Assembly (NCBI GenBank): GCA_049296095.1
Contig: JBAQRV010000001.1
Span: 150,001 to 182,000 of the forward strand
Direction: 5' to 3'
DNA length: 32,000 bases
DNA from: Candidatus Saccharimonadota bacterium
Lineage (GTDB): Bacteria > Patescibacteriota > Saccharimonadia > Saccharimonadales > Saccharimonadaceae
Position 1 is the stretch's first letter. Every line of letters begins with the position of its first letter. Under the pieces are notes generated by a model. The model did not search any database. It was not told the origin of the DNA and was given only the letters and a program-made list of their open reading frames with translations. Positions 4,556 through 13,597 of this stretch are shown one piece after another. A program made the position numbers and the translations under genes.

Positions 4556-4969
4556 ATGCCAACTATCAACCAACTCGTGCGTAAGCCACGAAAGACCGCT
4601 AACGCGAAGAGTAAATCTCCTGCACTCGGTCGTATTCACAATGCGCTCAAAGTTCGTTATTACAACCAGGACGCTCCTTTGAAGCGTGGCGTTTGTATTA
4701 AAGTAACCACCAAGACACCAAAAAAGCCTAACTCGGCCCTCCGTAAGGTTGCTCGTGTTCGTTTGACCAACGGTCAAGAAGTCTGGGCTTACATCGGTGG
4801 TGAAGGTCATAACCTCCAGGAACACGCCGTTGTGCTGGTTCGTGGTGGTCGTGTGCCAGACCTTCCAGGTGTTCGTTATCACATCGTTCGTGGCGCCCTT
4901 GACCTTCAAGGTGTCGCCAACCGTAAGCAGGGTCGTAGCAAGTACGGCGCTAAAAAGGATGACAAGTAA
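4556..4969 (+). CDS. rpsL: 30S ribosomal protein S12
   Basis: [13 protein letters not shown]..., [29 protein letters not shown] and [12 protein letters not shown] signatures. Carries an extra ~13-aa insertion and a Pro at the K88-equivalent position (see findings). Confidence 0.97.
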
Positions 4970-5448
4970 TGCCTCGTAAAGTCACCGTTAGCCTCCAACG
5001 TATTCCAAATCCAGACCGCAAGTACCAAAGCGTGATGGTGCAGCGTTTGATCAACAAATCAATGCTTGATGGTAAGAAAATGCTTGCCGAACGTGCTGTC
5101 TACGAAGCACTGGAAGTCGCTGCCAAGAAACTTGATAGCGAAAACCCACTCGAAGTATTTGAGCGAGCGCTCAAGAATGTTTCACCAAACTTCGAAGTTA
5201 AATCTCGTCGTGTTGGTGGTGCGAACTACCAGATTCCATTCCCAGTTGCTGGACACCGTCAGCTCCACTACGCCTTCACTTGGCTTGTCCAAGCAGCACG
5301 TGGTCGTAAGGGTATCCCTTACTCACAGCGCCTTGCGCTTGAGATCGTCGATGCCTACAACGAAACTGGTGCTGCCTTCAAGAAAAAAGAAGACACCCAC
5401 AAAATGGCCGAAGCCAACCGTGCTTTTGCTCACTTTGCTCGCGGATAA
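4969..5448 (+). CDS. rpsG: 30S ribosomal protein S7
   Basis: Start overlaps the rpsL stop (TAATG). 159 aa with the S7 blocks KSMLDGKK, VKSRRVGGANYQIPFPV and AFAHFAR. Confidence 0.97.
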   Translation: MPRKVTVSLQRIPNPDRKYQSVMVQRLINKSMLDGKKMLAERAVYEALEVAAKKLDSENPLEVFERALKNVSPNFEVKSRRVGGANYQIPFPVAGHRQLHYAFTWLVQAARGRKGIPYSQRLALEIVDAYNETGAAFKKKEDTHKMAEANRAFAHFARG

Positions 5449-5547: not shown

Positions 5548-6225
5548 ATGATTCCTCGAATACCAGCAGAATTCCGTATACCGACCAATCAAACAATTGA
5601 TGATCTTATTGCTGGCGTAGATAGTGATATAAAAGAAGAGGGAAGCGTACGGTCATTCTTGGGTATAATTCGGTTCGACCGACAAAATAGTCAGGCGTTT
5701 TACCATAAGGTGCTTTATCCTTCTACATATTTTGCACTCACACTTGAACTAAGAGATAGTGATGAAAACTTACGAGACCGCCAGCATAGATTAGCGAATG
5801 CAGTACTATCAGGGATGATCTTTGGCCACATTATTAATGAGTCAACGTACCCAGGGGTTGGGCGTAGCCATTTTCCTTATGACAAGATTTGGGTTAATAA
5901 TAATCTGCTAGGAGCTTATAAGGAAAGCTTTGAATCGCATGATGGTATTAAAACGGTAGAGGGAAGGAGGGTCGGCTACTATGCCATGGCACGTACTGCA
6001 ATCCAGGATCTCTCAGATGAATCTTTTGCGAATTTAGAAAAGTGGTCGGAAGATCTCATCCCTGAAGCTGTCTATAGACCGAATTTTACACTAGGATTCG
6101 GGACGGCAATATATAGTGGATGGGATTATTATACTGACAGGTTACTAGCTGAAGGTCGGGGTGACGAATTTATGGTTGCACCCGCCGGATTACCCTCTCC
6201 AAACGATGACCCACTACAAGCCTAA
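5548..6225 (+). CDS. Hypothetical protein, 225 aa (no recognised domain)
   Basis: Clean ATG-initiated ORF between rpsG and fusA. AT-rich (spot count 21/60 G+C in line 5881). Flanked by the rpsG terminator and its own promoter-like signal. Confidence 0.65.
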   Translation: MIPRIPAEFRIPTNQTIDDLIAGVDSDIKEEGSVRSFLGIIRFDRQNSQAFYHKVLYPSTYFALTLELRDSDENLRDRQHRLANAVLSGMIFGHIINESTYPGVGRSHFPYDKIWVNNNLLGAYKESFESHDGIKTVEGRRVGYYAMARTAIQDLSDESFANLEKWSEDLIPEAVYRPNFTLGFGTAIYSGWDYYTDRLLAEGRGDEFMVAPAGLPSPNDDPLQA

Positions 6226-6300: not shown

Positions 6301-6351
6301 AAAGACAAATGGGAATAAACACAAACACGATGAAAGGCCTTGGTTACTAAT

Positions 6352-7134
6352 ATGACGATAGAGCGTGTGCGTCCCGATGACGTAACGCGCTCACGCCGCC
6401 TGCCACCACTTGAAGCCTGGAAGAAGCCGGATAAGTGGATTGATATCTCTAGCGGTCTAGCTAGGAGAGATGCACCTAGACTCGTGTTTGCTGCTGATGA
6501 TCGTGGTTTTGTTAGACCAGATCAAATTGTAGAGTCGATTACCGATACCTTATTCTGGAATGATTACGATTGGCCATTTGAGCCTGGCGATGTAGAGACA
6601 CGGCCTGACGAGCATCACTTTTACTACGAAAGAAAGAAGTACTTGGTCGACGCAAATCATGGAGATGAGATTCCGCATCAATTTCGCGAACTACCAACTT
6701 CAATAGGAAGAATGCCTCGACAATTACATAATGCAATTCACGATTTTTCACTTCCACCTGAAAAGCCAGATAATGAAGCAATGCGAGAATATGTCGGCTC
6801 GTATCAATTGGCGCATGAGGCGTTTAGAAAAATGTTCAAGAGAGCGAAGCGAGTATTGCATCATATAGATATGCCTTATGATATGGCGCCGTTTGACATA
6901 AATGAGAAAAGGATGGATCCGATTGATGAAGCCTTTATGCAAAGCTTCTTTTCAGAGCACTTTAAAACATACAGTGTTTCTATAGAATTATTCCGTGTTG
7001 CATCCCAGAACATTGACCTCGAACAGTATATCCTTGAAGCACATCGACAACGGATGATCGAGTTTGCTGAGCGTATTGGGGATTTTGCTAGTCAGAAATA
7101 TTTTAACTTCACCCCTCTTCTGCAAGCGGCATAA
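6352..7134 (+). CDS. Hypothetical protein with a D-E-H-H ... N ... H-N-A-I-H motif (possible His-Me finger / HNH-EndoVII-like fold; speculative)
   Basis: ORF is open from TTG 6340; the first ATG is at 6352. DEHH is at nt 6607-6618 and LHNAIH at nt 6724-6741, with ANHG between them. No other recognisable domain. Confidence 0.6.
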   Translation: MTIERVRPDDVTRSRRLPPLEAWKKPDKWIDISSGLARRDAPRLVFAADDRGFVRPDQIVESITDTLFWNDYDWPFEPGDVETRPDEHHFYYERKKYLVDANHGDEIPHQFRELPTSIGRMPRQLHNAIHDFSLPPEKPDNEAMREYVGSYQLAHEAFRKMFKRAKRVLHHIDMPYDMAPFDINEKRMDPIDEAFMQSFFSEHFKTYSVSIELFRVASQNIDLEQYILEAHRQRMIEFAERIGDFASQKYFNFTPLLQAA

Positions 7135-7244: not shown

Positions 7245-9335
7245 ATGGCCCAAGCTAACGTTCCACTAAAGGACTTCCGTAATATCGGTATTATTGCCCA
7301 CATTGATGCGGGTAAAACAACTACAACCGAAGGTATTTTGTACCGAACGGGTATTAGCCACAAAATCGGTGCGGTTCATGATGGTGAAACCACTACTGAC
7401 TGGATGGCTCAAGAGCGCGAACGTGGTATCACGATTACTTCTGCTGCCGTGACGGCTTTCTGGAAGGGTCACAAGATCAACATCATCGATACCCCTGGCC
7501 ACATCGACTTTACAGCCGAAGTTGAGCGTTCACTCCGTGTTCTTGACGGTGCGGTGACCGTTTTCGACGGCAAGATGGGTGTCGAAGCACAGACAGAGAC
7601 TGTTTGGCGTCAAGCTAACAAGTACGGCGTGCCTCGTATCTGTTTCATTAACAAGATTAACCAAATTGGTGGTGACTTCTACAAATCTCTCGACTCGATT
7701 CACCTGCGTCTTTCAAAGCACGCCCTGCCTATTCACCTTCCTATTGGGTTTGAAAAGGAAATCAACGGTGTTGTCGACCTCGTTGATATGAAGGCCTACA
7801 CTTACAATGACTTTACTGACCACGAACTAATGGTTGGTGAAATTCCTGCCGACATGCTCGAAAAGGCTAAGCATGCACGTAGCCTCTTGGTTGAAGCAGC
7901 CGTTGAAGCTGAAGATGAACTGTTTGAACGATTCTTGACCGAAGGTGAAGAGTCTATCTCTGTTGAGGATCTTAAGCGGGCCCTTCGTAAGCGAGTACTT
8001 GCTGGTGACTTTTATCTTGTCACTGGTGGAGATGGCCGTGGGGTGATTGTTGAGAAGGTTCTTGACCTCGTGAACGACTACCTGCCATCACCGCTTGATG
8101 TTGAGGCTATTCAGGGTACTAACCCAAAGACTGGTGATCTCGTTGAACGCCAGCCTGCAGATAGTGAACCGCTCGCTGCACTTGCTTTTAAGATCGCAAC
8201 CGACCCATTTGTTGGACGACTTATCTTCGTTCGTGTCTACAGTGGTAAATTGACTGCCGGTAGTTACGTACTGAACACGACTACTGGTGACAAGGAGCGT
8301 ATCGGTCGCATCGTTCGTATGCACGCCGACAAGCGTGAAGACATCGATATGATTGGTGCAGGTGACATCGCTGCCGTCGTAGGCCTCAAGGACACCTTTA
8401 CTGGTGCCACCCTAGCGGACCCTGCGCATCCAATTTTGCTTGAATCAATCGACTTCCCAGAACCACCTGTTTCAATTGCTGTTGAGCCTAAGACCAAAGC
8501 TGACCAAGAGAAGATGGGTATTGCGCTGCAACGCCTGGCCGAAGAGGACCCAACCTTCCGTATTCACACAGACGAAGAGACTGGACAGACGATCATGTCT
8601 GGAATGGGCGAGCTTCACCTCGAGATCCTAGTTGATCGTATGAAGCGTGAATTCAATGTTGAAGCCAATGTTGGTGAGCCACAGGTTGCCTTCCGTGAAA
8701 CAATTCGCGGCATGGCTGAAGCCCAAGGTAAGCACGCCAAGCAATCAGGTGGACGTGGTCAGTATGGTGACGTCTGGATTCGATTTGAGCCGACTGAATC
8801 TGGTATTGGCTTTGAATTCGTTGATGAAATTAAGGGTGGTGTGGTCCCTCAGGAATACCGAAAGCCAGTTGAAAAAGGTATTCACGACACGCTCGATAGC
8901 GGTGTGATCGCCGGCTATCCAATGATCGGTGTCAAAGCAACCCTTTATGACGGTAGCTACCACGACGTGGACTCAAGCGAACTTGCCTTCAATCTGGCTG
9001 GTGTGTTGGCTGTCAAAGAAGGTATTCCAAAGGCAAAACCTGTTATTCTTGAGCCTGTCATGAAGGTTGAAGTATCAACCCCAGAAGACTTCATGGGTGA
9101 TATCATCGGTGACCTTAACGCTCGCCGTGGCCGTATCGATGCCATGGAAGACATTCCTGGTGGCGCCAAGCTGGTTCGTGCCTTTGTCCCTCTCTCAAAC
9201 CTGTTTGGGTACACCAATGACATTCGCTCGATGAGCCAAGGTCGCGCTGCATCAACTATGGAACTTGCTCAATACGAGGAAGTACCACCAAATGTTGCTG
9301 CCGAGATCATCGCCAAGCGAACCAACAAAGCCTAG
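7245..9335 (+). CDS. fusA: Elongation factor G
   Basis: 696 aa. G-domain motifs [17 protein letters not shown] and NKIN, plus EF-G domain IV/V blocks ([24 protein letters not shown]). Confidence 0.98.
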
Positions 9336-9344
9336 TACATCGAA

Positions 9345-9377
9345 ATACCCGGACCTAAAGAGCCGGGTATTTTATTT
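9345..9377 (+). terminator. Rho-independent terminator after fusA
   Basis: ATACCCGG (9345-9352), 10-nt loop, CCGGGTAT (9363-9370), then TTTATTT. Confidence 0.85.
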
Positions 9378-9396
9378 GGAATAAAGAATTGATTTG

Positions 9397-9402
9397 TAGA
9401 AT
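9397..9402 (+). promoter_or_regulatory. -10 box (TAGAAT) immediately upstream of the RadC-N ORF (leaderless layout)
   Basis: TAGAAT lies 7 nt upstream of ATG 9410. The -35 is weak (TTTGGA 9375-9380 with a 16-nt spacer). Confidence 0.4.
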
Positions 9403-9409
9403 GGGGGGT

Positions 9410-9679
9410 ATGGAGTTCGTACTATATCAGCGACCACGCGAAAAGCTACAGAGCAAGGGTGTTAAAGCGCTCTCTGTCGTCGAATTGCTCCAAGTTATCC
9501 TCGGGTCAGGTAGTCCTGATGCTTCAGGGGCAAAGATTGCGCGCTTGATTGAGAAGTTGATGATAGATAACGACGTCACGTATGAAACGCTGTTGTCGAT
9601 TCGAGGTGTCGGTAACGCAAAGACCTGTCAGATATTGGCCGCGTTTGAATTAAGTAAGAGAATGATGCCTCATGAATGA
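9410..9679 (+). CDS. RadC-family N-terminal (helix-hairpin-helix) region only; no JAB/MPN domain
   Basis: ..RPREKLQSKGVKALSVVELLQVILGSGS...IRGVGNAKTCQILAAFELSKR aligns block for block with the N-terminus of E. coli RadC/YicR as I recall it (PREK..G..AL...ELLA..L.TG......I.GIG.AK...L....EL.RR). The protein ends after ~90 aa without the HNHPSG JAB motif. Alternative starts: ATG 9401, TTG 9389. Confidence 0.75.
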   Translation: MEFVLYQRPREKLQSKGVKALSVVELLQVILGSGSPDASGAKIARLIEKLMIDNDVTYETLLSIRGVGNAKTCQILAAFELSKRMMPHE

Positions 9680-10112
9680 AGTTGTTGAGCTAAGGCGATG
9701 GCATCAACGTGCTCAGATTGATTACAAGTATCATTACATGGGCCTGTACGCAGCTTTTAACGCTTGGTATCGGCTGACGACAGGTGCCCATAATGATCGC
9801 GAGGCGCTGAATAAGCTGCGGATGGGGAATGTGACGTGGGAGCAATACTGTAGGGGTAGAACTATGCGCGAACTGGCACAGTACATGAATATGTTAGTCG
9901 AATGTACCCAACGAGAGCCGATTTCACACACGACACCACACTGGAACGGCGAGGTAGCACACACGAAAGATTGGCCCTCTGTCGTGGAGTACTGGTATAG
10001 GGTACGATGCCTTGTTATGCACGGTGCCGAGATACGTTCAGTCTATGTCTATCTTGCATACGAAACGCTTAACATTTTCATGACTGAAGTTATCACGCAA
10101 AAGCACTATTAA
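9672..10112 (+). CDS. Hypothetical 146-aa protein with an RxRCxxxHG motif (HEPN-like Rx4H; speculative)
   Basis: The ATG overlaps the RadC-N stop by 8 nt (ATGAATGA). YRVRCLVMHG at aa 109-118 (nt 9996-10025) resembles the HEPN signature R-R-N-x-x-x-H-G, with Cys replacing Asn, and sits in the last third of a small protein as in HEPN domains. Confidence 0.6.
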   Translation: MNEVVELRRWHQRAQIDYKYHYMGLYAAFNAWYRLTTGAHNDREALNKLRMGNVTWEQYCRGRTMRELAQYMNMLVECTQREPISHTTPHWNGEVAHTKDWPSVVEYWYRVRCLVMHGAEIRSVYVYLAYETLNIFMTEVITQKHY

Positions 10113-10117
10113 TACTG

Positions 10118-10146
10118 TTTACAACACTTCTAAAACAAGCTATAAT
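10118..10146 (+). promoter_or_regulatory. Sigma70-like promoter for tuf
   Basis: TTTACA (10118-10123), 17-nt spacer, TATAAT (10141-10146). A strong SD (AAAGAGGAG, 10192-10200) precedes ATG 10212. Confidence 0.7.
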
Positions 10147-10211
10147 TAGCCTATACGTCATGAGATGGCTATATTCTTATGCGAAATAATTAAAGAGGAG
10201 ATATAAACTAA

Positions 10212-11393
10212 ATGGCAGATTTCGATCGAACCAAGCCACATGTTAACGTTGGAACTATGGGTCACGTTGACCACGGTAAAACAACGCTTACAGCAGCTAT
10301 CACAGCTGTGCTTGCAAAACGACTTCCTAGCGAAGTAAACAAGCCAATTGCTTATGACCAAATTGACAACGCCCCAGAAGAGCGTGCGCGTGGTATTACC
10401 ATTGCTACCTCTCACCAGGAATACGAGTCAGAAAAGCGTCACTACGCTCACGTTGACATGCCAGGACACGCTGACTATGTAAAAAACATGATCACCGGTG
10501 CTGCACAGATTGACGGCGCAATCCTCGTGGTTGCGGCAAACGACGGTCCTTTGCCACAAACTCGTGAGCACGTTCTGCTTGCTCACCAGGTTGGTGTGCC
10601 AAAGATCCTTGTTTTCCTAAACAAGATGGACCTTGCCGACCCAGAACTAGTTGAACTCGTTGAAATGGACATTCGTGAACTACTCGCAAAGAACGGGTAC
10701 GACGAAAACGCTCCTATCATCAAGGGTTCAGCAACCAAGGCTCTCGAAGGTGATCCTGCATCTGAGGATGCAATCATGGAACTGGTAAAGGCTCTTGATG
10801 AGTACGTTCCAGAACCAACTCGTGAGCTCGACAAGCCATTCTTGATGCCAGTTGAAGACGTCTTCTCAATTAAGGGACGTGGAACTGTTGCAACTGGACG
10901 TATTGAGCAAGGTATCGTAAAGATCAACGACGAAGTTGAAATTGTCGGTGTTCGCCCAACTCAGAAGTCTGTTGTGACTGGAATTGAAGCCTTCAAAAAG
11001 AACCTTAACCAAGGTCAAGCTGGTGACAACGCTGGACTCCTCCTTCGTGGAATTGAGCGTGAAGACATCGAACGTGGCCAGGTTATCGTCAAGCCAGGCT
11101 CATTGACTCCTCACACTGAATTTGAAGCTGAAGTCTACATCCTTAAGAAGGAAGAAGGTGGTCGCCACACTCCTTTCTCAAAGGGTTACAAGCCTCAGTT
11201 CTACTTCCGAACCACTGACGTGACAGGCGAAGTTGAACTTCCAGCTGACAAGGAACTGGTTATCCCTGGTGATACAGTAACTTTCATCGTGAAGCTTCTC
11301 GCTCCTATCGCCATGGAACAAGGTTTGAACTTTGCTATCCGTGAAGGTGGTAAGACTGTTGGTGCCGGTGTGGTTACCAAGGTTGTTAAATAA
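10212..11393 (+). CDS. tuf: Elongation factor Tu
   Basis: 393 aa with [18 protein letters not shown] and NKMD, and typical EF-Tu domains II and III. Confidence 0.99.
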
Positions 11394-11499: not shown

Positions 11500-12009
11500 T
11501 CAACGGGACTGACGGGCGAGTTGTCGCTCATTGCGACGCTTGGCACGAAAGTAGGCACGGTTGTTGGCTGCAAGACGACGCCGTATCCGACGTAGCTCTG
11601 CGGTCGGTACTTCAATGAAGTAGTACCTTGGACCACCGATACTGTGGCTGAAATCAAGGAACCGAAAGCTCCTAGCGAACCGCTCGAGTAGCTTCTCAGC
11701 GTTGTCGTGCGTTGTCAGGCAACGGATGTACGCGTCCGAATAGCCATCAACGCGCACCAAGTTCTCGTTTCGGAGAAAGGGGAGCGCCAGGATCCACAAG
11801 CCATCAATCTCGACTAGCCGAATGGTGACTTTTCGGTCGCCCTTGATCAGCGCGATTGGCAGCCTGAGGAGTGCCTTCCAGAGTTCCTTTCGCAAGGTCT
11901 TCAGGGTGAGCACTTGTGCCGCCTGAAATTCTTCTTCGGAGAGATTGGCGAGTTCTCGATTGCGCCAATGTTTGGGAGGCTCGAAGCCCTTATCCCATGG
12001 ACTTAGCAT
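11500..12009 (-). CDS. Hypothetical protein A, 169 aa, Arg-rich C-terminal tail
   Basis: ATG at 12009 is preceded by GAAGAAGG. Has its own promoter and terminator. C-terminus is ELRRIRRRLAANNRAYFRAKRRNERQLARQSR. No recognised domain. GC-richer than surroundings (spot counts 34/60, 32/60, 34/60). Confidence 0.65.
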   Translation of the reverse strand: MLSPWDKGFEPPKHWRNRELANLSEEEFQAAQVLTLKTLRKELWKALLRLPIALIKGDRKVTIRLVEIDGLWILALPFLRNENLVRVDGYSDAYIRCLTTHDNAEKLLERFARSFRFLDFSHSIGGPRYYFIEVPTAELRRIRRRLAANNRAYFRAKRRNERQLARQSR

Positions 12010-12620: not shown

Positions 12621-12674
12621 ATGCGAAAACCCCGCTGACCTGGATGGCCAATTGGGCCTTCGACGGGTGCGGGG
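12621..12674 (-). terminator. Minus-strand terminator of cassette C; copy 3 of the repeated 3' element
   Basis: Minus strand: CCCCGC directly after the stop codon, an internal GGCC..GGCC palindrome, GCGGGG, then TTTTCGCATCTC. Confidence 0.6.
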
Positions 12675-13031
12675 TTAGAGATGGAAGATGTAGCGAAATC
12701 GTACGTGGATCGTCTCGAACGCGTAGTACTCGATGCGAAGAACGGTTCCGAACGACGCAAAGTTCCTCCGAACATACTCCTCGATTGCTTCTCGGAGGTA
12801 CCGAGCGTCGAGTCTGTCGTCTCTTGTGTACAGGTACACCCGGGGTTGCTTGTTGTTCCCGACGACGTAGTCCTGTCGTGCGAGCCCGATCACCAAACCC
12901 AGTTCCGGGCCAATCGTGGCTTCGACATGAGCGATCGCGCGTTCGCGAAGATCTTGCTCGTAGTCACGCCATCTCTTCTTGTCGGCTCGCTCATGGGCTC
13001 GTCGATTGCGGAGAGTTTGACGTCTCTGCAT
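12675..13031 (-). CDS. Hypothetical protein C, ~118 aa, Arg-rich N-terminus
   Basis: ATG at 13031 is preceded by AAAGGAAG. The longer ORF to 13139 starts at TTG inside the promoter and is unlikely. N-terminus is MQRRQTLRNRRAHERADKKRWR. No recognised domain. Spot G+C 37/60 in line 12841. Confidence 0.6.
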   Translation of the reverse strand: MQRRQTLRNRRAHERADKKRWRDYEQDLRERAIAHVEATIGPELGLVIGLARQDYVVGNNKQPRVYLYTRDDRLDARYLREAIEEYVRRNFASFGTVLRIEYYAFETIHVRFRYIFHL

Positions 13032-13110
13032 TACTTCCTTTCGGTTAAGTATGCCTTTCACAATAGTTCCTTTCAATCGGTGATGTACTAATCGGTCAGG
13101 CTGGTTTCTA

Positions 13111-13140: not shown

Positions 13141-13169
13141 TTGCCAGTTTTGTATTTGTTTGCTAAGAT
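13141..13169 (+). promoter_or_regulatory. Sigma70-like promoter for rpsJ
   Basis: TTGCCA (13141-13146), 17-nt spacer, TAAGAT (13164-13169). Leaves a ~95-nt leader before ATG 13271. Confidence 0.55.
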
Positions 13170-13270
13170 TAACCCCGTATTATATTAATCATTCCGACAA
13201 CTCGGCCAGACGCGAACACCACCGATTCGAGCAGAGGTTACGGGATACAACAAGAAAGGTTTCTTCCCTC

Positions 13271-13597
13271 ATGGCAGAAGCACCAAAAGAAGCAGGCCTC
13301 CGAATTCGGATTCGCCTCAAGGCCTATGACCACAAGGTCATCGACCAATCAGCAAAACAAATTATCGATACGGCTATTCGTACAGGCGCGAGCATTGCTG
13401 GCCCAGTACCTTTGCCAACTCGACGTAGTACATTTACAGTAGTCAAGTCGCCGCACGTCTACAAAAAGGGCGGTGAAACGTTTGAAATGCGTATTCACAA
13501 GCGCTTGATTGATATCACCAACGCCACCCCAAAGACGATCGACAGTCTACAGAACCTCAGCCTCCCAGCTGGTGTTGATGCAGAAATCCGTATGTAA
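13271..13597 (+). CDS. rpsJ: 30S ribosomal protein S10
   Basis: [35 protein letters not shown]...HKRLIDI. The upstream part of the listed ORF (13160-13270) is leader, not S10-like. Confidence 0.96.

What the first reader, a model, noticed from the sequence alone, without database searches (positions are those of the whole stretch)
9389..10112. RadC N-terminal-only ORF translationally coupled to a HEPN-like (RxRCxxxHG) ORF between fusA and tuf
The first ORF matches the N-terminal helix-hairpin-helix region of RadC/YicR (PREKL..G..ALS..ELL...LG.G ... IRGVGNAKTCQILAAFELSKR). It stops after ~90 aa, so the JAB/MPN metalloprotease domain (HNHPSG motif) that defines RadC is absent. Its stop overlaps the start of a 146-aa ORF by 8 nt (ATGAATGA). 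That ORF contains YRVRCLVMHG (aa 109-118) in its last third, which fits the Rx4-6H catalytic motif of HEPN RNases and resembles the common R-R-N-x-x-x-H-G version, with Cys in place of Asn. The pair sits between its own -10 box (TAGAAT 9397-9402, leaderless layout) and the tuf promoter, downstream of the strong fusA terminator. HEPN toxins are usually paired with MNT antitoxins. An HhH(RadC-N) plus HEPN-like pair would be an undescribed two-gene architecture, possibly a toxin-antitoxin or abortive-infection module, or a RadC derivative in which the JAB domain was swapped for another effector.
Basis: partly seen in the sequence, partly recalled or inferred. Interest (0 to 1): 0.7.

Follow-up and report, generated by a model that had tools for sequence, protein, structure and literature searches.

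The report
RadC-derived partner plus HEPN-like protein cassette
Between the elongation-factor genes fusA and tuf, this Saccharibacteria genome carries a conserved, tightly coupled gene pair: a short DNA-binding remnant of RadC and a small helical protein whose only invariant residues form an RNase-type Arg/His motif; the pair has not been described before, and it is probably a toxin/defence-like module, but its biochemistry is untested.

Summary
ORF1 (9410-9679, 89 aa) is a RadC N-terminal HhH domain (Pfam UPF0758_N, E 1e-13) with no JAB domain. Its stop overlaps by 8 nt the start of ORF2 (9672-10112, 146 aa), which matches no curated family.

The pair is not a decaying fragment. About 40 Saccharibacteria loci carry the same two genes, always between fusA and tuf. 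The stop and start overlap in 34 of 43 loci, and dN/dS is about 0.05-0.27.

Sister lineages carry a longer form: a full-length RadC-like protein with a degenerate JAMM site, plus ORF2 with a ~55-aa tail. The window holds the trimmed form of both genes. One protein (P0124) fuses the HhH domain directly to the ORF2 domain.

Across 90 divergent ORF2 relatives, only R112 and H117 are invariant (R-[C/N]-x3-H-G). The motif sits at the end of the penultimate helix, which is where HEPN places it. More distant relatives lie in R-M/TIR defence islands and match the C-terminus of Dazbog DzbB.

HEPN membership is not proven. The profile similarity to ApeA HEPN (hhalign 76%) comes from the motif block alone, and two high-confidence AlphaFold models match nothing in the PDB by Foldseek.

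Verdict: a real, undescribed two-gene module, probably a HEPN-like RNase with a RadC-derived regulator. Interest is moderate to high.

The parts
7245..9335 (+). fusA (EF-G), the upstream boundary of the cassette's conserved position
   Evidence: 696-aa ORF. Homologous loci carry the EF-G Pfam domains. It is 86-95% identical across loci.
9342..9373 (+). Hairpin after fusA followed by a U-rich tail; a likely intrinsic terminator
   Evidence: RNA fold dG -15.9 kcal/mol, z -3.5, 0 of 200 shuffles as stable. The simple scan did not call it.
9397..9402 (+). TAGAAT, a possible -10 box 7 nt before the ORF1 ATG (leaderless layout, unproven)
   Evidence: Present in the sequence. There is no -35 and the scan did not call it. 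Related loci have a -10-like box close to the ATG and no Shine-Dalgarno sequence.
9410..9679 (+). ORF1: 89-aa RadC-derived HhH protein (UPF0758_N only, no JAB domain). An alternative TTG start lies at 9389.
   Evidence: Pfam PF20582 E 1e-13. NCBIfam RadC models are matched over their N-terminal ~85 positions only. The homologues are 88-90 aa. dN is far below the saturated dS.
9672..9679 (+). ATGAATGA: the ORF2 start overlapping the ORF1 stop (translational coupling)
   Evidence: The overlap is conserved in 34 of 43 loci, and the gap is 32 nt or less in 8 more.
9672..10112 (+). ORF2: 146-aa all-alpha protein of an uncharacterised family carrying a HEPN-like R-[C/N]-x3-H-G motif
   Evidence: No curated family hit. 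63 close homologues and 278 profile hits. AF2 pLDDT 92.7, seven helices.
9996..10025 (+). Codons for Y109-R-V-R112-C113-L-V-M-H117-G118, the predicted active-site motif
   Evidence: R112 and H117 are the only invariant columns in 90 sequences. Y109 and G118 are conserved in at least 90%. The motif lies at the C-terminal end of helix 101-116.
10118..10146 (+). tuf promoter TTTACA-17-TATAAT, abutting the 3' end of ORF2
   Evidence: 11 of 12 consensus positions. It is conserved at the DNA level in related loci. Some homologues translate it as the C-terminal extension TVYNTSKTSYN.
10212..11393 (+). tuf (EF-Tu), the downstream boundary
   Evidence: 393-aa ORF. It is 87-96% identical across loci.

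Best explanation
The region encodes a conserved two-gene cassette that has sat in the fusA-tuf spacer of a Saccharimonadaceae lineage for a long time.

Shown:
- ORF2 belongs to an uncharacterised all-helical family. Its non-Saccharibacteria members lie in restriction-modification and TIR defence islands.
- The only invariant residues of that family are an Arg and a His, four residues apart, at the end of the penultimate helix.
- ORF1 is the helix-hairpin-helix nucleic-acid-binding half of a RadC-like partner. In sister lineages that partner still carries a JAB domain with a destroyed metal site.
- The two genes are translationally coupled, co-inherited and, in one case, fused.

Inferred:
- ORF2 is a HEPN-type, metal-independent endoribonuclease. 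H117 would activate the 2'-OH and R112 would stabilise the transition state, probably across a dimer interface.
- ORF1 binds ORF2 in a 1:1 complex and either holds it inactive (antitoxin-like) or tethers it to DNA or RNA as a sensor.
- RNase activity would then be released under a specific condition, such as foreign nucleic acid or loss of the partner, and would arrest growth.
- The window holds a minimised version: the partner's pseudo-JAB domain and the ~55-aa ORF2 tail were lost together.
For: Domain identity of ORF1.

Co-conservation and position:
- Every locus with ORF2 identity of 33% or more and enough upstream DNA has a RadC-like ORF directly upstream.
- All of these loci lie between fusA and tuf.
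- The stop and start overlap in 34 of 43 loci.
- P0124 fuses the HhH domain to the ORF2 domain.

Selection: dN/dS is 0.05-0.27 where it can be computed, and dS is otherwise saturated.

Catalytic dyad:
- R112 and H117 are the only invariant columns of 90 sequences.
- The residue after the Arg is Cys in 70 and Asn in 20 of them. Distant members read RNNLFHG.
- The motif lies at the end of helix 101-116, before the loop to helix 123-145. A second model shows the same layout. This is the HEPN position per PMC3710099.

Weak similarity, but consistently to HEPN proteins:
- The A2 profile's top four PDB hits are ApeA (E 0.011).
- hhalign against an ApeA C-terminal profile gives 76%, versus under 1% for reversed or shuffled controls.
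- Bona fide ApeA homologues also carry R-C-x3-H.
- Sub-threshold hits reach HEPN_Apea, HEPN_RiboL-PSP, Cas13a, Csx1 and CARF-HEPN models.

Defence context of relatives:
- 34 of 90 relatives match the C-terminus of Dazbog DzbB.
- Some relatives are fused to DUF4357/RAMA-like domains.
- Neighbouring genes include ThsB-TIR, Type ISP, BsuBI/PstI R-M, HsdS, GIY-YIG-DUF4357 and Pycsar-type TIR.

The partner is a pseudo-enzyme: the first JAMM His is lost in every full-length partner.

Correlated loss: 9 of 9 HhH-only loci lack the ORF2 tail, while nearly all full-length loci keep it.
Against: - No curated HEPN model reaches significance.
- The hhalign signal disappears when the motif columns are removed (0.3%), so only the motif is shared, not the domain.
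- A profile of the RN-type subfamily hits no HEPN structure.
- Foldseek finds nothing in the PDB or BFVD for two high-confidence models.
- Long-term vertical inheritance at one fixed housekeeping locus under strong purifying selection is not typical of TA or defence modules.
- No viral or plasmid relatives were found.
- No RNase activity, toxicity or ORF1-ORF2 binding has been measured.
Confidence: 0.5

Rival explanations
1. The cassette is a domesticated housekeeping factor. The pair would form an RNA-processing or translation-linked activity, for example rRNA/tRNA maturation or quality control, that this Saccharibacteria lineage needs. On this view it is not a toxin or immunity module. ORF2 could still be a HEPN-like RNase.
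For: - The pair keeps a fixed position inside the str/S10 ribosomal gene region in about 40 loci.
- The tuf and ORF2 trees are roughly congruent, which suggests vertical descent.
- dS is saturated while dN/dS is about 0.05-0.27.
- No phage or plasmid copies were found.
- The host genomes are small and reduced, yet the genes are retained.
Against: - Relatives outside this lineage are standalone genes in R-M/TIR defence islands and near transposases or recombinases.
- Relatives match the Dazbog DzbB model.
- The strict-pattern scan of GTDB species representatives found only 5 loci.
- One strain carries an in-frame TGA at the invariant W91 codon, seen in four assemblies, so ORF2 may be dispensable.
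- The fusA-ORF1 spacer holds variable extra genes, which marks it as an insertion hotspot.
Confidence: 0.25
2. ORF2 is not a HEPN domain. It would be a new helical fold that uses an Arg/His pair for a different chemistry, such as DNA or nucleotide cleavage or binding of a phosphorylated ligand. The resemblance to HEPN would be a convergent short motif.
For: - Two models with pLDDT 92.7 and 94.1 have no Foldseek match to any PDB chain, although many HEPN structures are in the library.
- The profile similarity to ApeA is confined to the motif block.
- The family has seven helices and a conserved aromatic-rich N-terminal half (W10, D17-Y18, Y22, N30, W32) that is not part of the HEPN definition.
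Against: - The motif's composition (Y-x2-R-[N/C]-x3-H-G), its location at the end of the penultimate helix and the defence-island context all match HEPN.
- The R-C variant occurs in genuine ApeA homologues.
- Foldseek is known to be weak on small all-helical domains (my own knowledge, not tested here).
- Cys113 is replaced by Asn in 22% of members, which argues against a Cys-His nucleophile chemistry.
Confidence: 0.2
3. The region is a decayed radC pseudogene fragment next to an unrelated hypothetical ORF, and the two have no joint function.
For: Sister lineages carry a full-length (210-225 aa) RadC-like gene at the same position. ORF1 is therefore historically a truncation.
Against: - The 88-96-aa form is intact in 9 distinct loci at 42-61% identity. 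It still scores E 1e-13 against the Pfam HhH model, with dN far below dS.
- The stop/start overlap with ORF2 is retained.
- No JAB remnant is left.
- The pairing predates the truncation, and a fused form exists.
Confidence: 0.03

Closest known systems
ApeA-type HEPN domain (Pfam HEPN_Apea; anti-phage tRNA anticodon nuclease, PDB 9hxb)
   Same: - Both carry the block Y-R-x-R-[N/C]-x3-H followed by a long helix. Some ApeA homologues read R-C-x3-H.
- ApeA gives the best PDB profile hits and an hhalign probability of 76%.
- Both families have members in defence or R-M neighbourhoods.
   Different: - ORF2 is 146 aa and lacks the ~300-aa ApeA N-terminal domain.
- The similarity is limited to the motif block.
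- Foldseek does not link the models to 9hxb.
- ApeA acts as a single protein activated by deoxydinucleotides (bioRxiv 10.64898/2026.01.26.701840). Here there is a RadC-derived partner gene.
DzbB of the Dazbog anti-phage system (PADLOC PDLC03836)
   Same: - 34 of 90 ORF2-family members match the C-terminal ~120 positions of the DzbB model, best E 2.8e-6.
- Both are the uncharacterised second gene of a two-gene unit whose first gene is a DNA-recognition protein. In Dazbog that gene is a DUF262 protein.
   Different: - The window ORF2 itself gives no PADLOC hit.
- DzbB is 341 positions long and is paired with DzbA (DUF262), not with RadC.
- No DUF262 gene is present here.
- I did not see a DzbB sequence, so I could not check whether it carries the R-x4-H motif.
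RadC/YicR (UPF0758: HhH N-domain plus JAB/MPN domain)
   Same: - ORF1 matches the RadC N-terminal HhH domain.
- Full-length partners in sister lineages align with E. coli YicR over the whole JAB domain.
   Different: - The window protein has no JAB domain at all.
- The full-length partners have lost the first JAMM histidine (HNHPSG becomes IGHAQH, FYPSTD and similar). They score 59 bits against a cutoff of 134.
- Canonical radC is not reported with a coupled downstream R-x4-H gene. No paper in the held library mentions such a pair.
HEPN-MNT and other HEPN toxin-antitoxin pairs
   Same: Both are a small two-gene, translationally coupled unit in which a putative Rx4H RNase is paired with a small partner encoded upstream.
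   Different: - The partner here is an HhH domain (with or without a pseudo-JAB domain), not a minimal nucleotidyltransferase.
- The cassette is chromosomally fixed and vertically inherited rather than mobile.

Membership tests
HEPN superfamily | Conserved Rx4-6H motif | tested here: met
   R112-x4-H117. These are the only invariant columns in 90 divergent relatives. The motif is present in nearly all 149 listed representatives.
HEPN superfamily | Motif at the end of core helix 3 and the start of the loop to helix 4 (PMC3710099) | tested here: met
   AF2 DSSP gives helix 101-116, loop, then helix 123-145. The second family model places R129-H134 at the end of helix 118-133. The definition was read. 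This rests on predicted, not solved, structures.
HEPN superfamily | Polar residue (N/D/H) immediately after the Arg | tested here: inconclusive
   The window has Cys113. Across the family, Cys occurs in 70 of 90 and Asn in 20 of 90. Two genuine ApeA homologues also have Cys here.
HEPN superfamily | Significant sequence-profile similarity to an established HEPN family over the whole domain | tested here: not met
   - Pfam, NCBIfam and PADLOC give only sub-threshold hits.
- The profile search against PDB sequences gives ApeA at E 0.011.
- hhalign gives 66-76%, but 0.3% once the motif columns are deleted.
HEPN superfamily | Four-helix up-down bundle superposable on known HEPN structures | tested here: inconclusive
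HEPN superfamily | Metal-independent endoRNase activity giving 2',3'-cyclic phosphate ends | not testable with these tools
   This needs biochemistry.
RadC/YicR (UPF0758) | N-terminal HhH domain (PF20582) | tested here: met
   E 1e-13, 51.6 bits against a cutoff of 27.1.
RadC/YicR (UPF0758) | C-terminal JAB/MPN domain with the JAMM motif (HxH...S..D) | tested here: not met
   ORF1 ends after the HhH domain, and the NCBIfam models are matched over positions 1-81/212 and 1-87/218 only. No JAB-like sequence lies in the window. Full-length relatives have a degenerate motif.
Dazbog (DzbA+DzbB) | Match to the DzbB model | tested here: not met
   The window ORF2 has no PADLOC hit at E up to 10. 34 of 90 relatives match only the C-terminal third of DzbB.
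Dazbog (DzbA+DzbB) | Adjacent DUF262 (DzbA) gene | tested here: not met
   The upstream gene is a RadC-N HhH protein, and the flanks are fusA and tuf.
ApeA | ~300-aa beta-rich N-terminal domain fused to the HEPN domain (PMC3710099 table) | tested here: not met
   ORF2 is 146 aa and entirely helical.
HEPN-MNT toxin-antitoxin | Partner is a minimal nucleotidyltransferase | tested here: not met
   The partner is UPF0758_N, and no NTase hit was found.

The most novel reading that the evidence does not exclude
RadC-like proteins (HhH plus a JAB or pseudo-JAB domain) act as nucleic-acid-sensing regulators of a previously unrecognised R/H-dyad effector family. That family also supplies the C-terminal domain of Dazbog DzbB.

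If so, the Saccharibacteria cassette would be a new type of two-component RNA-targeting immunity or addiction system, fixed inside the translation-factor operon. It would give the first mechanistic handle on two open questions: what RadC-family proteins do, and how Dazbog kills. The effector fold might be new rather than a HEPN variant.
Probability: 0.25. Interest if true: 0.75.

Novelty: new variant of a known kind. Interest (0 to 1): 0.58.

Why it matters
If the reading holds, three things follow.
- It defines a new effector family with a HEPN-like catalytic dyad. The family has about 278 clusters at 50% identity and no Pfam, NCBIfam or PDB entry.
- It reveals a partner type not seen before: a RadC-derived HhH or pseudo-JAB protein.
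- It proposes a testable activity (an Arg/His RNase) for the unexplained effector side of the Dazbog anti-phage system.

It would also give a concrete partner to RadC/YicR. That is a near-universal bacterial protein whose function has been disputed for decades (PMC5512222 cites 'RadC, a misleading name?').

Finally, the case is unusual because a defence-island type gene has been kept for a long time at a fixed site between fusA and tuf in reduced episymbiont genomes. There it was progressively minimised: the JAB domain and the effector tail were lost together.

Tried and rejected
Searches that gave nothing useful:
- Direct family searches of ORF2 (Pfam, NCBIfam, PADLOC, PHROGs, PDB sequences): no meaningful hit.
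- Foldseek of two models against the PDB and of the ORF2 model against BFVD: nothing.
- A profile of the RN-type subfamily against the PDB: nothing HEPN-like.
- The search for homologous proteins with a 48-aa ApeA fragment: no candidates, so the call was wasted. ApeA homologues were taken from plasmids instead.
- Viral contigs and plasmids hold no relatives.
- Rfam: no RNA family in 9200-10300.
- No tRNA in the window.

Ideas considered and dropped:
- Pseudogene remnant. Rejected on conservation, coupling and dN/dS.
- Cys113-His117 as a cysteine-hydrolase dyad. Rejected because Cys is Asn in 22% of members.
- Rapid diversification or allele exchange at the locus. This was first suggested by the lack of correlation between tuf and ORF2 identity (Spearman 0.07-0.12). 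I withdrew it because dS is saturated, the trees are roughly congruent and dN/dS is low. EF-Tu and EF-G are simply too conserved to serve as a clock.
- P0120 (1035 aa, 15 matched stretches) is a repetitive protein and a spurious hit.
- The 209-aa gene upstream of relative P0087 is a membrane protein, not RadC.
Full report
**1. What is in the sequence**

The window comes from a Saccharibacteria genome. The top ORF2 hit is a MAG of Candidatus Microsaccharimonas, family Saccharimonadaceae.

- fusA ends at 9335. It is followed by a stable hairpin at 9342-9373 with dG -15.9 kcal/mol and z -3.5.
- ORF1 can start at TTG 9389 or ATG 9410. The ATG form (89 aa) matches the NCBI gene call and the 88-90-aa homologues.
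- Its stop (9677-9679) overlaps the ATG of ORF2 (9672) within ATGAATGA.
- ORF2 (146 aa) ends at 10112, five bases before a near-consensus promoter, TTTACA-17-TATAAT, at 10118-10146. That promoter precedes tuf (10212-11393).
- TAGAAT at 9397-9402 exists, but it has no -35 and the scan did not call it.
- No related locus has a Shine-Dalgarno sequence before ORF1, and most have a -10-like box a few bases before the ATG. A leaderless mRNA is therefore plausible but not shown.
- No Rfam family and no tRNA lie in the region.

**2. ORF1**

- ORF1 hits Pfam UPF0758_N (E 1e-13). It aligns only to the first ~85 positions of the two NCBIfam RadC models.
- The JAB/MPN half is absent, and no JAB-like remnant is left in the window.

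**3. ORF2 family**

- ORF2 matches nothing in Pfam, NCBIfam, PADLOC, PHROGs or PDB sequences.
- It has 63 homologues at 51% identity or more. In these, EYWYRVRCLVxHG is essentially invariant.
- An exhaustive profile search finds 278 cluster representatives.
- In an alignment of 90 diverse members, the only invariant columns are R112 and H117. Y109, G118 and L133 are conserved in at least 90%.
- The residue after the Arg is Cys in 70 members and Asn in 20. Distant members read RNNLFHG.
- AlphaFold gives a confident seven-helix model (pLDDT 92.7, pTM 0.87). The motif sits at the C-terminal end of helix 101-116, just before the loop to the last helix, 123-145.
- A second model, for an Asn-type member, has the same topology (pLDDT 94.1).

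**4. Is it HEPN?**

For:
[quoted passage not shown] That matches the models.
- The broad profile's top four PDB hits are ApeA anti-phage HEPN proteins (E 0.011), aligned on the motif and the following helix.
- I built an ApeA C-terminal profile from ten plasmid homologues. hhalign gives 76% (A2), 66% (A1) and 46% (A5).
- Reversed and column-shuffled controls give under 1%.
- Two genuine ApeA homologues carry R-C-x3-H, like ORF2.
- Sub-threshold hits of family members go repeatedly to HEPN models: HEPN_Apea, HEPN_RiboL-PSP, Cas13a, Cas13-ApeA, Csx1 and CARF-HEPN.

Against:
- Deleting the motif columns drops hhalign to 0.3%, and 8-column block shuffles still reach 70%. The similarity is therefore the motif block only.
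- The Asn-type sub-profile hits no HEPN structure.
- Foldseek finds nothing in the PDB or BFVD for either model.

I therefore treat ORF2 as HEPN-like in its active site, with fold-level membership unproven (about 55%).

**5. The pair is conserved and older than its present form**

- In 8 distinct loci from long contigs and GTDB genomes, the order is fusA - (variable insert) - ORF1 - ORF2 - tuf.
- A metagenome scan added 46 loci.
- Local HMM and tblastn analysis shows that every locus with ORF2 identity of 33% or more and enough upstream DNA has a RadC-like ORF ending at the ORF2 start. All of these lie between fusA and tuf genes that are 86-96% identical to the window's.
- The stop and start overlap in 34 of 43 loci, and the gap is 32 nt or less in 8 more.

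Two forms exist.
- The short form, as in the window, has an 88-96-aa HhH-only ORF1 and a ~146-aa ORF2.
- The full form has a 210-225-aa ORF1 plus an ORF2 carrying a ~55-aa tail that ends SPDhWNVDM.
- The full-length partners align to the RadC models and to E. coli YicR across the JAB domain. However, HNHPSG is replaced by IGHAQH, FYPSTD, IGGQDQ and similar, and they score 59 bits against a cutoff of 134. They are pseudo-JAB proteins.
- All 9 short-form loci lack the ORF2 tail, and nearly all full-form loci have it. The two pieces were lost together.
- P0124 fuses the HhH domain directly to the ORF2 domain.

Synonymous sites are saturated in most pairs. Where it can be computed, dN/dS is 0.05-0.27 for both genes. 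For the closest pair it is 0.07 and 0.05.

The tuf and ORF2 trees are roughly congruent. The cassette is therefore old, vertically inherited and constrained. It is not a pseudogene.

**6. Relatives outside this lineage**

- Members at 26-42% identity have no RadC partner and are not near fusA or tuf.
- Their neighbours include two ThsB-type TIR genes, a HIT protein and a Type ISP specificity domain.
- Other neighbours are an Eco57I/N6-methylase fused to a BsuBI/PstI endonuclease, a Type I HsdS upstream with GIY-YIG-DUF4357 downstream, a Pycsar-type TIR with a serine recombinase, and transposases.
- Some members are fused to DUF4357/RAMA-like domains or to zinc ribbons.
- 34 of 90 members match the C-terminal third of Dazbog DzbB, best E 2.8e-6.
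- Dazbog is an abortive-infection system. Its first gene (DUF262) is thought to sense methylated DNA, and the papers read here assign no domain to the second gene.

**7. Most likely mechanism**

Shown:
- The pair is a coupled, co-inherited and occasionally fused gene pair.
- ORF1 is an HhH domain.
- ORF2 belongs to a defence-island family with an invariant Arg/His dyad placed as in HEPN.

Inferred:
- ORF2 is a metal-independent endoRNase.
- ORF1 binds it and acts as an inhibitor or as a nucleic-acid-sensing tether.
- The unit behaves like a toxin-antitoxin or abortive-infection module that has become fixed in the fusA-tuf spacer.

The main rival is a domesticated housekeeping RNA-processing role. 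Fixed synteny, vertical descent and low dN/dS favour it. The family's defence contexts disfavour it, as does a strain with a TGA at the invariant W91 codon, reproducible in four assemblies. So does the hotspot character of the spacer, which carries unrelated membrane-protein genes in some loci.

**8. Novelty**

No paper in the held library links RadC with HEPN or describes this pair. The family has no curated model.

I rate it a new variant of a known kind: a HEPN-like effector with a new partner class. There is a real chance, about 20-25%, that the effector fold is itself new.

Noticed in passing
L007 3770-3772 (identical in L019, L020, L021): In Candidatus Saccharibacteria bacterium 49-20, the ORF2 homologue has an in-frame TGA exactly at the invariant Trp91 codon. 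The rest of the gene, including EYWYRVRCLVMHG, is intact. The same TGA appears in four assemblies that are 100% identical over 3 kb. It could be a recent inactivation of a toxic gene or UGA read-through as Trp.
   Followed up: partly
window 5548-6225 and 6340-7134 (+): Two ORFs (225 and 264 aa) with no Pfam or NCBIfam hit sit between the ORFs at 4556-4969 and 4969-5448 (137 and 159 aa) and fusA. I read the first two as rpsL and rpsG from their size and position only. L001 has two similar unannotated genes (219 and 225 aa) before fusA. The normally contiguous str operon therefore seems to be interrupted by lineage-specific genes at several junctions.
   Followed up: partly
L005 2065-3057; L007 1983-3206; L008 2046-3143: In some relatives the spacer between fusA and the cassette holds an extra, unrelated gene: a 330-aa protein with a weak ABC-2 membrane-domain hit, a 407-aa protein with no hits, and a 365-aa DUF998-like membrane protein. 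The fusA-tuf gap therefore behaves as an insertion hotspot.
   Followed up: partly
window 10114-10146 and homologues P0004, P0030, P0042, P0057 and others: Many ORF2 homologues end in ...TVYNTSKTSYN. This is simply the translation of the conserved tuf promoter DNA (ACTGTTTACAACACTTCTAAAACAAGCTATAAT). In those genomes the ORF2 stop lies inside or after the -10 box, so coding sequence and promoter overlap.
   Followed up: yes
window 11500-12009 (-), 12644-13048 (+), 13160-13597 (+): Two more ORFs without family hits (169 and 134 aa) lie between tuf and rpsJ. The rpsJ ORF as listed (TTG start, 145 aa) has about 49 residues before the S10 domain (Pfam residues 50-143), so the start is probably over-extended. 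Related loci carry a VanY-domain gene between tuf and rpsJ instead.
   Followed up: no
L036 1219-2831; P0151, P0214: In a non-Saccharibacteria relative, the ORF2-like gene sits between a Type I HsdS gene and a GIY-YIG-DUF4357 gene. In P0151 and P0214 the ORF2-like domain is fused to DUF4357, and these proteins match the PADLOC candidate system PDC-S14. This suggests a second sensor-effector pairing for the same effector domain.
   Followed up: partly
L066 and L067 (Enterobacter and Klebsiella plasmids): The ApeA homologues fetched as controls lie directly next to a gene annotated as anti-phage protein Ppl. This is a small defence cluster on IncF plasmids.
   Followed up: no
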